Shown here: positions 39,190-41,075 of the stretch, in pieces
Position numbering within the stretch: position 1 is the first letter of the stretch
How the letters are laid out: every line of letters begins with the position of its first letter
Position numbers and translations under genes: made by a program
From: an uncultured Gammaproteobacteria bacterium
GTDB lineage: Bacteria; Patescibacteriota; Microgenomatia; CAYQLK01
Reading direction: 5' to 3'
DNA: 41,075 nt
Assembly (NCBI GenBank): GCA_964426075.1
Contig: CAYROP010000003.1
Coordinates: 1 to 41,075 of the forward strand
The notes under the pieces: generated by a model
Told to the model about the DNA's origin: nothing
What the model saw: only the letters and a program-made list of their open reading frames with translations
Databases searched by the model: none

Positions 39190-39415
39190 GGAAAAATTTA
39201 GCTACAAATTGAAGCTAAAATGTTACTTCGTCATTACCTATTAATTAGACCTATAGTATATTCATTTTTTTGATTAACAAACATAAAATCTAGTGTTAAA
39301 CGATCGTTGTTCTTACAAAAAACTTAAATTCGGTGGCAAAAATAAATTAGTAGAGGAGTAATAAAAAAGAGGAATTAGGTTCAAGAGTAGAGCAAAATGA
39401 TATAGTTTGATACAG

Positions 39416-39494
39416 TGTGAAAACTTGTGAAAATTGTCGTGAAAACTGAATGTTAGTCAAAGGCGGGGAGTGATAGTAGTAAAAATGTGGATAA
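39416..39494. repeat. three phased GTGAAAA repeats (relaxed DnaA-box-like) plus one perfect DnaA box
   Basis: TGTGAAAAC at 39416, TGTGAAAAT at 39426, CGTGAAAAC at 39438 (10- and 12-nt phasing). TGTGGATAA at 39486-39494 is the reverse complement of TTATCCACA. Confidence 0.45.
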
Positions 39495-39712: not shown

Positions 39713-39790
39713 AAGTAATGATGTGTGTTGATTAATTAATAGCTTGTAGGGATATTGCACTACACTGGTCTGTAAGAGTAGAAAAATGAT

Positions 39791-39818
39791 ATGTCGTACA
39801 ATATAACTTTTGCGACAT
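39791..39818. repeat. 28-bp dif-like imperfect palindrome (11-6-11), candidate tyrosine-recombinase site
   Basis: ATGTCGTACAA-TATAAC-TTTTGCGACAT. The arms match 8/11 as inverted repeats. Confidence 0.4.
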
Positions 39819-40093
39819 AAAATAACAAAAACGGGGTGGGGACGAAAACACTAAAAAAATGAAATTTGTTAAAAAAACAAAAAATAAATTTTTAAAAACT
39901 TTGATCTAGTTTGATTTAACCCCCTATGGATTGGCTTAATTATTTGATTAATTTGATATGGTTTGTTATCTTGACCACTTTTTTATTGTTTTTTGCGGTA
40001 TATATGCGGTTATTAGCTATATTTATTGAAATTCGATGATAGATTACCCTACCCAATTAATAAAAAGCCGTTTTAGGACCAATTAGGGGTTTT

Positions 40094-40123
40094 TAGCCTC
40101 AAAATATCGATATTTTGAGGCTA
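40094..40123. repeat. 30-bp perfect palindrome overlapping the -35 region of the mini-cassette promoter
   Basis: TAGCCTCAAAATATCGATATTTTGAGGCTA. Confidence 0.6.
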
Positions 40124-40135
40124 AAGTGATATAAG
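40107..40135 (+). promoter_or_regulatory. cassette-type promoter (TCGATA-N17-TATAAG with TGn)
   Basis: The spacer TTTTGAGGCTAAA is identical to the spacer of the 1219-1257 module. Confidence 0.45.
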
Positions 40136-40179
40136 TGTTGTTTAGATTTCTTGAACATTAACTGTTTGGAGGTTTGGTT

Positions 40180-40401
40180 TTGTTTGTCAAGGGAGTTTGC
40201 TCAGACTTTTTGGGCTTTCTGGCAGAATTGTCGCTGGTAAGGCGGTCGGTTTTGCTGGGGCTTACTATAGCAGTACTTAGTTGTGCTGTTACTTGGATCT
40301 GGACTCAGAATCCTTTCTGGGGCTTTGTTACTTTGGGATTTGGCGCCTTCTGGTGGGCTGTTCTTGGGGCTTCTGTCGCACAAGTCTCTCGGACTGATTG
40401 A
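40180..40401 (+). CDS. small G+C-rich membrane protein (2 TM helices)
   Basis: GGAGG at 40168-40172. TTG 40180 has 7-nt spacing, whereas the track start TTG 40174 has only 1 nt. The sequence is hydrophobic and Trp-rich. Confidence 0.4.
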   Translation: MFVKGVCSDFLGFLAELSLVRRSVLLGLTIAVLSCAVTWIWTQNPFWGFVTLGFGAFWWAVLGASVAQVSRTD

Positions 40402-40484
40402 TCGCTCTTTTCCAGCGTCGGTTTTTGGAAAATAATCTATTTACATTTGTAATAGATTGTATTCGAGAACCGGCTTTTTTTAAG

Positions 40485-40510
40485 AAAAATTATATGTCGC
40501 ACAATATGAT
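40485..40510. repeat. 22/26-nt direct-repeat copy of 39782-39807 (left arm and centre of the dif-like site only)
   Basis: AAAAATTATATGTCGCACAATATGAT versus AAAAATGATATGTCGTACAATATAAC. Confidence 0.5.
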
Positions 40511-40521
40511 AGAGTGGTTAT

Positions 40522-41075
40522 ATGGAGAATGATCAAAAATCGTCGAAAGAAAAATCTGATAAGTTTGGTAAAGAGATCAGTGAGTTTTTGGAATATTTGG
40601 AGGTCGAAAGAAACGTTTCTCCCCTCACCTTACGGGACTATAAACACTATTTAGAAGTTTTTGCTAATTGGGCAAGTGAGAATAATATTGGCGAGATCGA
40701 AAGTATTGATATTAAACAAATTAGGTCGTTTAGGCTGTTTTTGTCGAGAAAATTAACTCAGGATGGTGAGCCAATTAAAAAGATAACGCAGAATTATTAT
40801 GTTATTGCATTGCGGGCAATGCTTAGATATATGGTTAAGAATGACCGCAAGGTTATTTCGCCTGACAAGATAGAGCTAGGTAAACAAGAAGGTAGACAGG
40901 TTAAGTTCTTGACTCAAGATCACTTGAATAGATTACTCAATAGCCCAAATATAAATAATTTAAGTGGTTTAAGGGATAAGGCAATATTGGAGATGCTTTT
41001 TTCTACTGGTTTGCGTGTGTCGGAGATGGTTGGTTTGGATCGCGACTCAATTGATTTAAATACTGGAGAATTTGG
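40522..41075 (+). CDS. XerC/XerD-like tyrosine recombinase, 3'-truncated by the window end
   Basis: My own translation from ATG 40522: ...FLEYLEVERNVSPLTLRDYKHYLEVF... (N-terminal SAM-like domain) and ...LRDKAILEMLFSTGLRVSEMVGLDRDSIDL (catalytic Arg box). It is absent from the ORF track because it runs off the end. Confidence 0.85.
   Translation, partial: MENDQKSSKEKSDKFGKEISEFLEYLEVERNVSPLTLRDYKHYLEVFANWASENNIGEIESIDIKQIRSFRLFLSRKLTQDGEPIKKITQNYYVIALRAMLRYMVKNDRKVISPDKIELGKQEGRQVKFLTQDHLNRLLNSPNINNLSGLRDKAILEMLFSTGLRVSEMVGLDRDSIDLNTGEF

What the first reader, a model, noticed from the sequence alone, without database searches (positions are those of the whole stretch)
39782..40510. dif-like 28-bp site and a half-site direct repeat bracket a G+C-rich mini-cassette next to a Xer-like recombinase
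Seen: 39791-39818 reads ATGTCGTACAA-TATAAC-TTTTGCGACAT. That is two 11-nt inverted arms (8/11 match) around a 6-nt AT-rich centre, the architecture of Xer/dif-type sites.

A 26-nt segment including the left arm and centre (39782-39807) recurs with 22/26 identity at 40485-40510, only 12 nt before the recombinase ATG (40522). It lacks the right arm there.

Between the two copies lie a palindrome-controlled cassette-type promoter and the G+C-rich 75-aa membrane ORF (40174/40180-40401).

Inference: the interval could be a cassette captured or excisable by the adjacent tyrosine recombinase. That would make this a possible mechanistic link to how the large array at 0.1-8.6 kb was assembled. Alternatively the full site is the chromosomal or plasmid multimer-resolution site, and the second copy is promoter duplication.
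Basis: partly seen in the sequence, partly recalled or inferred. Interest (0 to 1): 0.65.

Follow-up and report, generated by a model that had tools for sequence, protein, structure and literature searches.

The report
Xer recombination site plus promoter half-site
The 28-base palindrome is the conserved, single-copy target site of the neighbouring Xer recombinase in a large group of ultra-small uncultured bacteria. The "second copy" is one arm of that site built into the recombinase gene's own promoter, so the DNA between them is an ordinary inherited stretch and not a mobile cassette.

Summary
The site ATGTCGTACAA-TATAAC-TTTTGCGACAT lies at 39791-39818 (arms 9/11 complementary, not 8/11). 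A 22/26 copy of its left part lies at 40485-40510.

The palindrome alone is not statistically remarkable. Its conservation is. The core occurs exactly once per genome in 202 of 401 genomes of the class (Microgenomatia, CPR). Wherever both were located, it lay 0.3-2.5 kb upstream of a conserved Xer-family gene, co-oriented.

Families with a divergent recombinase carry a different palindrome, so site type tracks enzyme type. More than 100 viral contigs carry the site, mostly without an integrase. One integrase-less filamentous-type prophage is flanked by a hybrid and a canonical copy.

The second copy is a lone arm lying over the xer promoter. In this genus that is an extended -10 and a leaderless ATG; elsewhere the arm abuts a -35. 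Autoregulation is the likely role.

The interval, including a 73-aa membrane ORF, is present in three congeners and, where assembled, in a fourth. The motif is absent from the 0.1-8.6 kb array, so the cassette reading fails.

The site is not at the GC-skew switch, so "dif" is not fully met. This scan had already reported the same module on other genomes.

The parts
39398..39415 (+). Tandem motif TGATATAGTTTGATACAG, readable as two overlapping extended -10 elements (TGnTATAGT). It is the upstream element of the module.
   Evidence: Present on the module strand upstream of the site in 28 of 39 distinct loci from many families. The only copy with 1 mismatch or fewer in the own genome.
39416..39446 (+). 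Three phased DnaA-box-like 9-mers: TGTGAAAAC, TGTGAAAAT and CGTGAAAAC.
   Evidence: The only triple cluster of YGTGAAAA in the genome. Conserved in congeners. Similar TTTTCACR copies flank the box in other families.
39486..39494 (-). Perfect DnaA box TTATCCACA (reads TGTGGATAA on the module strand).
   Evidence: One of 11 perfect boxes in the genome. A perfect box in this orientation lies 130-930 nt upstream of the site in 23 of 39 loci.
39791..39818 (+). 28-bp core recombination site: left arm 39791-39801, centre 39802-39807, right arm 39808-39818.
   Evidence: Single copy in 202 of 401 genomes of the class. Lies upstream of xer in the same orientation in every locus where both were found. 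Also found on viral contigs.
39902..39919 (+). Weaker second copy of the tandem motif (TGATCTAGTTTGATTTAA), 84 nt after the site.
   Evidence: 3 mismatches. The block is conserved in congeners (columns about 801-830).
39927..40039 (+). 37-codon hydrophobic mini-ORF, probably not a gene.
   Evidence: In G004 the frame stops after 20 codons, and G003 lacks the ATG (read from alignment A1).
39990..40091 (.). Non-coding block that is more conserved than the neighbouring ORF. Function unknown.
   Evidence: Near-invariant columns in all five congeners. No Rfam family matches.
40092..40125 (.). Perfect palindrome lying over the promoter of the small ORF (probable operator).
   Evidence: I25: 19-nt arms, 100% complementary. 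Conserved in congeners.
40127..40135 (+). Extended -10 TGATATAAG of the small ORF. The Shine-Dalgarno GGAGG is at 40168-40172.
   Evidence: Read from the sequence. Conserved in alignment A1.
40180..40401 (+). G+C-rich orphan gene for a 73-aa protein with two hydrophobic stretches.
   Evidence: The same 73-codon frame, without indels, is found in G000, G002, G003 and G004. No Pfam family. No homologue apart from itself in the 5.8-billion-protein search.
40417..40482 (+). Terminator-like nested stem (CGGTT...AACCG) followed by a T-run, after the small ORF.
   Evidence: Read from the sequence. CCGGTT/AACCGG and the T-run are conserved in all congeners. The simple terminator scan did not call it.
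40494..40504 (+). Solitary Xer-type arm (half-site) ATGTCGCACAA in the xer promoter.
   Evidence: Conserved in congeners. GTCGCACAAT lies next to the xer promoter in most families.
40507..40515 (+). Extended -10 TGATAGAGT of xer. Six nt follow, then the ATG, which predicts a leaderless mRNA.
   Evidence: Read from the sequence. TGnTAGAGT followed by a 6-nt spacing is conserved in all five congeners.
40522..41073 (+). Xer-family tyrosine recombinase gene: the first 184 codons, cut off by the contig end.
   Evidence: Pfam Phage_int_SAM_1 plus the start of Phage_integrase. Full-length 324-aa orthologue in G004: XerC 253 bits and XerD 246 bits; best solved structure XerD 1a0p, E 5.6e-41.

Best explanation
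39791-39818 is the core recombination site of the Xer-family tyrosine recombinase encoded 0.7 kb downstream. Together they form a linked site-plus-gene module that is conserved across much of the class Microgenomatia.

Inferred mechanism: recombinase monomers bind the two nearly identical 11-bp inverted arms (ATGTCGYACAA and AYGTCGCAAAA). Two sites synapse, and strands are exchanged across the asymmetric 6-bp centre. The most likely cellular job is to unlink chromosome dimers, which would make it a dif equivalent. Integrase-less phages exploit the same site.

The copy at 40494-40504 is a single arm placed in the xer promoter. In this genus it occupies about -28 to -18 of an extended -10 promoter (TGATAGAGT) that should start a leaderless mRNA at the ATG. 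A bound recombinase monomer would most likely repress transcription of its own gene.

The DNA in between is a stable, genus-specific insert and not a recombination substrate. It holds a conserved non-coding block, a promoter with a palindromic operator, a 73-aa membrane orphan gene and a terminator.

Shown: the sequence anatomy, single-copy conservation, linkage and co-orientation with xer, co-variation of site type with recombinase type, presence on phages, and one integrated element flanked by a hybrid and a canonical site.
Inferred: binding, catalysis, dimer resolution and autorepression.
For: - Exactly one copy per genome in 202 of 401 class genomes, with none for the reversed-pattern control.
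- xer was always downstream and co-oriented, 0.3-2.5 kb away, wherever both were located.
- The recombinase belongs to the Xer family.
- Site type tracks recombinase type. Families whose linked recombinase is only 30-35% identical carry CTGAGTATAA-N6-TTACACTCAG within about 100 nt of it. The two site types had complementary family distributions, apart from one 2-mismatch hit in a type-A genome. Variant arms occur with intermediate orthologues.
- The core pattern is on more than 103 IMG/VR contigs. 45 of 48 records, and 12 of 14 phages at least 90% complete, lack PF00589.
- L136: a 5.3-kb element (G2P rolling-circle Rep, weak Zot match), with no recombinase match among its ORFs of 110 aa or more, lies next to a murG-like host gene. 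It is flanked in direct orientation by ACGTCGCACAA-TATACC-TTGTATTGCGT and a canonical ACGTCGCACAA-TATACC-TTTTACGACAT.
- The half-site GTCGCACAAT abuts a canonical -35 (TTGACA-17-TAAACT/TATAAT) in many families. In this genus it precedes TGnTAGAGT-6 nt-ATG.
- The interval and ORF are kept in G001, G003 and G004, and in the assembled part of G002.
Against: - No binding or recombination was tested.
- The site is not at the GC-skew switch. In the two genomes with a clean V-shaped skew it lies 72 kb (G157) and 158 kb (G276) before the switch. In G286 and G206 the skew has one sign all round the chromosome, so no terminus can be read.
- Most genomes have a second, unlinked Xer-like paralogue (25% identity). 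It is therefore unknown which protein or proteins act at the site.
- Half of the sampled genomes lack the exact pattern.
- No transcription start data exist for the proposed promoters.
Confidence: 0.7

Rival explanations
1. One reading: the full site and the half-site are the ends of a gene cassette that the recombinase captured or can excise, and the same mechanism built the 0.1-8.6 kb array.
For: A direct repeat of 22/26 brackets a self-contained G+C-rich promoter-ORF-terminator unit next to a tyrosine recombinase gene. Integrase-less elements do insert at this type of site elsewhere.
Against: - The second copy lacks a right arm.
- An attR scar would retain the host right arm, as it does in L136.
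- The half-site is a class-wide feature of xer promoters.
- The interval is at the same spacing in three congeners and, where assembled, in a fourth.
- The motif is absent from the array and from the rest of the genome.
- No genome has two core sites.
Confidence: 0.04
2. The site is a genuine Xer target, but its main cellular role is not terminus-linked dimer resolution. Possible roles include a resolution site independent of terminus geometry (archaeal XerA style), a regulatory or architectural site tied to the DnaA-box promoter upstream, or a docking site kept for other reasons.
For: The site is off the terminus in G157 and G276. It lies 0.20-0.42 chromosome lengths from dnaA, always on the side co-oriented with the module, in the seven single-contig genomes examined; G004 shows the same direction on its contig. 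A conserved DnaA box and a tandem extended -10 motif lie upstream.
Against: FtsK with a gamma domain is present. RuvC is encoded nearby, which points to homologous recombination, and dimers from it would need resolving. No other candidate dif was seen, although none was searched for systematically. In G206 the best two-level change point in skew coincides with the site.
Confidence: 0.2
3. The palindrome and the half-site are operators of a transcription factor other than Xer, which regulates xer and the neighbouring transcripts.
For: The half-site is positioned like an operator at promoters. Palindromes of this quality are common by chance.
Against: xer is the only gene consistently linked to the site. 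The site type switches together with the recombinase clade. The arms resemble XerC-type arms such as the ColE1 cer arm GGTGCGTACAA (from my own knowledge). Phages carry the site, and one prophage is flanked by hybrid and canonical copies.
Confidence: 0.06
4. The 26-nt similarity is only a duplicated promoter: both copies are promoters of the same type.
For: An A-rich flank plus TAYAAT-like sequence is shared by both copies. The 9-nt flank similarity is specific to this genus.
Against: The conserved extended -10 (TGnTAGAGT) follows only the second copy. In other families only the 11-nt arm is shared, not the flanks.
Confidence: 0.04

Closest known systems
XerS/difSL module of streptococci and lactococci (Le Bourgeois 2007, PMC1914069)
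   Same: The recombination site is physically linked upstream of its recombinase gene as one module. Those authors also proposed autoregulation through binding at the promoter.
   Different: That site is 31 bp, not 28 bp. It lies at the terminus. XerS is a different clade (NF003462: 131 bits against a cut-off of 267). Here the full site is 0.3-2.5 kb away and a separate half-site sits on the promoter. A second Xer-like paralogue is common.
Archaeal XerA/dif (review PMC5357621)
   Same: A 28-bp site with near-symmetric arms. Some species have a xerA/dif module. dif is reported at 122-144 degrees from oriC rather than 180. Here the site is 0.20-0.42 of the circle from dnaA.
   Different: These are bacteria with a complete FtsK that includes the gamma domain. 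The XerA model scores 210 bits against a cut-off of 220, so it is not met.
XerCD/dif with IMEX elements (CTX-phi type filamentous phages)
   Same: An 11-6-11 core. Integrase-less phages carry a look-alike site. One rolling-circle-Rep and Zot-like prophage is flanked by a hybrid and a canonical site.
   Different: The site is not at the skew switch. The XerC and XerD equivalog cut-offs are not met. The arms are almost identical, rather than distinct XerC and XerD arms.
Acinetobacter pdif modules and integron cassettes
   Same: Short Xer-type sites next to small self-contained genes.
   Different: Those modules are bounded by two complete sites, occur in many copies and vary between strains. Here there is one full site per genome, one half-site and a fixed interval.

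Membership tests
dif (chromosomal Xer dimer-resolution site) | 28-bp core with two roughly 11-bp inverted arms around a 6-bp centre | tested here: met
dif (chromosomal Xer dimer-resolution site) | Single copy per chromosome and conserved among relatives | tested here: met
   Own genome. 202 of 401 class genomes have exactly one copy each.
dif (chromosomal Xer dimer-resolution site) | A cognate Xer-family recombinase is encoded in the genome | tested here: met
   Site type co-varies with the recombinase clade.
dif (chromosomal Xer dimer-resolution site) | Located at the replication terminus or GC-skew switch | tested here: not met
   G157: switch at about 56 kb, with the site 72 kb before it. 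G276: switch at about 92 kb, with the site 158 kb before it. Undefined in the one-signed-skew genomes G286 and G206; this one-signed skew is a known oddity (PMC7143001).
dif (chromosomal Xer dimer-resolution site) | Recombined by Xer to resolve chromosome dimers | not testable with these tools
   Needs biochemistry or genetics.
XerC or XerD equivalogs (NCBIfam TIGR02224 / TIGR02225) | Score above the curated equivalog cut-off | tested here: not met
   253 bits against a cut-off of 335, and 246 bits against 330. The protein is Xer family, about equally distant from XerC and XerD.
XerS/difSL-type single-recombinase module | The site is linked upstream of the recombinase gene | tested here: met
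XerS/difSL-type single-recombinase module | Only one Xer recombinase in the genome | tested here: inconclusive
   27 of 41 genomes have exactly two PF00589 proteins. The second is about 295 aa and unlinked. The own genome's second copy is on C27.
Mobile cassette bounded by recombination sites (pdif module, integron cassette, IMEX scar) | Two complete sites, or attL/attR hybrids that each keep one host arm | tested here: not met
   The second copy has no right arm. Contrast L136.
Mobile cassette bounded by recombination sites (pdif module, integron cassette, IMEX scar) | Variable presence among related genomes, or multiple copies of the site | tested here: not met
   Present in G001, G003 and G004 and, where assembled, in G002. 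The motif occurs nowhere else in the genome.

The most novel reading that the evidence does not exclude
Microgenomatia may run a bacterial Xer system whose site is deliberately placed off the terminus. It lies about one third of the chromosome from oriC, always on the replichore co-oriented with the module. It is preceded by a conserved promoter gated by a DnaA box. Xer action or expression would then be timed by DnaA and fork passage rather than by FtsK and terminus geometry. This occurs in lineages where some chromosomes show a one-signed GC skew.
Probability: 0.2. Interest if true: 0.8.

Novelty: new variant of a known kind. Interest (0 to 1): 0.55.

Why it matters

- A defined 28-bp site with a cognate enzyme gives a handle for chromosome biology in organisms that cannot be cultured.
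- It is also a marker for host-phage linkage, because phages carry the host site type.
- The system appears to break the rule that dif lies at the terminus, so it is a test case for that rule.
- For this window specifically, the result removes a tempting but wrong link between the recombinase and the orphan-gene array.

Tried and rejected
- GC-skew flip at the site, 40 kb either side, in five genomes: no flip. The whole G286 chromosome has one sign, so the test is uninformative there.
- Idea that the DnaA-box cluster beside the site is the real origin, which would put ori and ter side by side and imply unidirectional replication. Rejected for G157 and G276, where the skew origin is at dnaA. 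In the own genome the strongest cluster of canonical boxes is at dnaA on C7.
- Gene-orientation convergence at the site: suggestive in G286, G029 and G180, absent in G004 and G072. Not used as evidence.
- Step in skew at the site: skew was higher upstream than downstream in all seven genomes examined. The step is within local noise in each single genome.
- RNA hairpin reading of the palindrome: many sites pair C7 with A22, which is a mismatch (by eye). No Rfam family matches.
- Homologues of the 73-aa ORF: none apart from itself.
- KOPS-type oligomer polarity was not attempted, because it is confounded with the GC skew.

Full report
**What is in the sequence**

The 28-mer ATGTCGTACAA-TATAAC-TTTTGCGACAT lies at 39791-39818. 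Its arms are 9/11 complementary. The segments 39782-39807 and 40485-40510 match at 22/26, and the second ends 12 nt before the ATG at 40522. It has no recognisable right arm.

Palindromes of this quality are frequent: 15 in the window against 6.1 in shuffles. The shape alone therefore proves nothing. In the 826-kb genome, where the window is the whole of contig C3, the motif occurs only at these two places. It does not occur at the borders of the 0.1-8.6 kb array.

The recombinase gene is cut at codon 184 by the contig end.

**Conservation within the genus**

Three of the four congeneric species (G001, G003, G004) carry both copies at the same spacing of about 703 bp. They also carry the whole interval: a highly conserved non-coding block, the perfect palindrome over a promoter, and the small ORF. 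In G002 the full site and xer lie on different contigs, and the assembled part of the interval is conserved.

The ORF is a 73-codon frame starting at the TTG at 40180. It has no indels in four species. It has no Pfam family and no homologue elsewhere.

**Conservation across the class**

The full 28-mer pattern, with up to 3 mismatches, hits 138 of 301 genomes. 137 of them have it exactly once, and the reversed-pattern control gives none. The core GTCGYACAA-N6-TTTTRCGAC hits 202 of 401 genomes, always exactly once.

In every genome where both features were located, the site lies 0.3-2.5 kb upstream of a conserved recombinase gene on the same strand.

The full-length orthologue is a Xer-family protein. 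It scores 253 bits for XerC and 246 for XerD, both below the equivalog cut-offs. The best solved relative is E. coli XerD.

**Site type tracks enzyme type**

Families that lacked the pattern fall into two groups.
- Where the orthologue is 44-46% identical to the window's protein, a variant site lies upstream of xer. Examples are ACGTCGTAAAT-TGTATC-TTTTACGACGT in G016 and ATGTCGTATAA-CTACAC-TTTTACGACGT in G019.
- Where the linked recombinase is only 30-35% identical (G007, G017, G023, G031), a different 11-6-11 palindrome lies within about 100 nt of it: CTGAGTATAA-N6-TTACACTCAG.

That second type is found at one locus per genome. It occurs in families f4 and f14 (5 of 5 each) and in some genomes of f18, f20, f28, f31 and f45. 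It is absent from the families that carry the first type, apart from one 2-mismatch hit in G083 (f29) on a different contig from that genome's type-A site.

This co-variation is the strongest computational argument that the adjacent enzyme acts on the site.

**Phages**

- 45 of 48 records have no PF00589 protein. So do 12 of the 14 phages that are at least 90% complete.
- In fragments of tailed phages the site sits just upstream of genes that appear to be terS, terL and portal. The large terminase and portal are matched by PHROGs; terS is inferred from ORF size and order.
- A few small contigs encode a rolling-circle Rep and a Zot-like protein.

L136 is an IMG/VR provirus with a murG-like host flank. 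It holds a 5.3-kb element encoding a G2P-type Rep and a weak Zot match, with no recombinase match among its ORFs of 110 aa or more. Two directly repeated sites bound the element. They share the left arm and centre and differ in the right arm: TTGTATTGCGT in one, the canonical TTTTACGACAT in the other.

That is the footprint expected of an element that integrated through a host recombinase. It also shows what a real integration scar looks like. The window's second copy keeps no host right arm, so it is not such a scar.

**The half-site**

GTCGCACAAT recurs next to the xer promoter in most families. It usually abuts a canonical -35, as in GTCGCACAAT-A-TTGACA-17 nt-TAAACT or TATAAT.

In this genus it is followed by TGnTAGAGT, an extended -10, then 6 nt, then the ATG. 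This is conserved in all five species. It predicts a leaderless mRNA, with the half-site at about -28 to -18.

I infer autoregulation by a bound monomer, probably repression. Le Bourgeois et al. proposed the same for difSL-xerS. This has not been tested.

**Is it dif?**

Architecture, copy number, conservation, cognate enzyme and exploitation by phages all fit. Position does not.
- G157 and G276 have clean V-shaped skews with the origin at dnaA.
- Their skew switches are at about 56 kb and about 92 kb.
- The site lies 72 kb and 158 kb before the switch.
- G286 and G206 have a skew of one sign around the entire chromosome. This oddity has been published for Microgenomates (PMC7143001), so no terminus can be read there.

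In the seven single-contig genomes examined, the site lies 0.20-0.42 chromosome lengths from dnaA. It is always on the side where the module points away from dnaA. G004 shows the same direction on its 661-kb contig.

FtsK with alpha, motor and gamma domains is present.

Most genomes also have a second, unlinked Xer-like protein of about 295 aa. The own copy is on C27 and is 25% identical. Earlier notes called this a "single recombinase" system, and that description is not safe.

**Upstream elements**

Two further elements belong to the module.
- A perfect DnaA box, reading TGTGGATAA on the module strand, lies 130-930 nt upstream of the site in 23 of 39 loci. The own copy is at 39486-39494, with three phased TGTGAAAAY at 39416-39446.
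- The tandem motif TGATATAGTTTGATATAG lies just before the box in 28 of 39 loci. The own copy is at 39398-39415 and is unique in the genome.

The motif reads as two extended -10 elements firing towards the site, with the DnaA box at the predicted transcription start. Its function is unknown.

I tested and rejected the idea that this region is the replication origin.

**Earlier notes and limits**

Earlier follow-ups in this scan reported the same module on other CPR genomes. I re-derived the main points independently here. I add four things:
- the co-variation of site type with recombinase clade;
- the second paralogue;
- the consistent position of the site relative to dnaA;
- the DnaA-box and tandem-motif element.

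Noticed in passing
window 39398-39494: A tandem TGATATAG motif, three phased DnaA-like boxes and a perfect DnaA box lie upstream of the Xer site. The motif and the perfect box recur upstream of the site, in fixed orientation, in many families (motif 28 of 39 loci, box 23 of 39).
   Followed up: partly
G286:C1 and G206:C1 (loci L069-L092, L246-L265): Two complete chromosomes of 1.0 Mb and 0.8 Mb have a GC skew of one sign all the way round (down to -0.49). G157 and G276, in the same class, have classical V-shaped skews with the origin at dnaA.
   Followed up: partly
G000:C27:9607-10500 (L003:1150-2043): A second Xer-like recombinase of 298 aa, 25% identical to the site-linked one, lies about 0.6-1 kb from two tRNA-like genes (read by eye, not scanned). 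A similar protein of about 295 aa is present in most genomes of the class.
   Followed up: partly
L272:2849, L274:2945, L275:2892, L271:1732: A second site family, ACTGAGTATAA-N6-TTACACTCAGT, lies directly upstream of a divergent recombinase clade in families f4, f14, f20, f28 and others. G034 has both recombinase types side by side.
   Followed up: yes
L094, L105, L117, L129, L139, L166, L177 (viral contigs): In fragments of tailed phages, the site sits immediately upstream of a roughly 150-aa ORF, then the large terminase, then the portal. This places it beside the packaging module.
   Followed up: partly
L127:9311-9401: A 15.6-kb phage with direct terminal repeats carries two near-complete sites 67 nt apart on opposite strands.
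   Followed up: no
L095:11620/12322 and L162:2730/3432: A phage has a full site plus an inverted lone arm (GTCGCACAATATA) 700 nt away. This echoes the bacterial arrangement of a full site plus a half-site.
   Followed up: no
window 39990-40091: A non-coding block that is more conserved among the five congeners than the adjacent ORF. It matches no Rfam family.
   Followed up: no
window 41075 (contig end); G002:C62 and G002:C59: The assembly breaks inside xer in this genome. In G002 it breaks between the site and xer. The 3' part of xer is absent from the assembly.
   Followed up: no
G157:C1:589001-609000 (L225): GC skew drops from about +0.2 to about 0 within 2-4 kb after the site. It stays weakly positive for about 70 kb before turning negative.
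   Followed up: no
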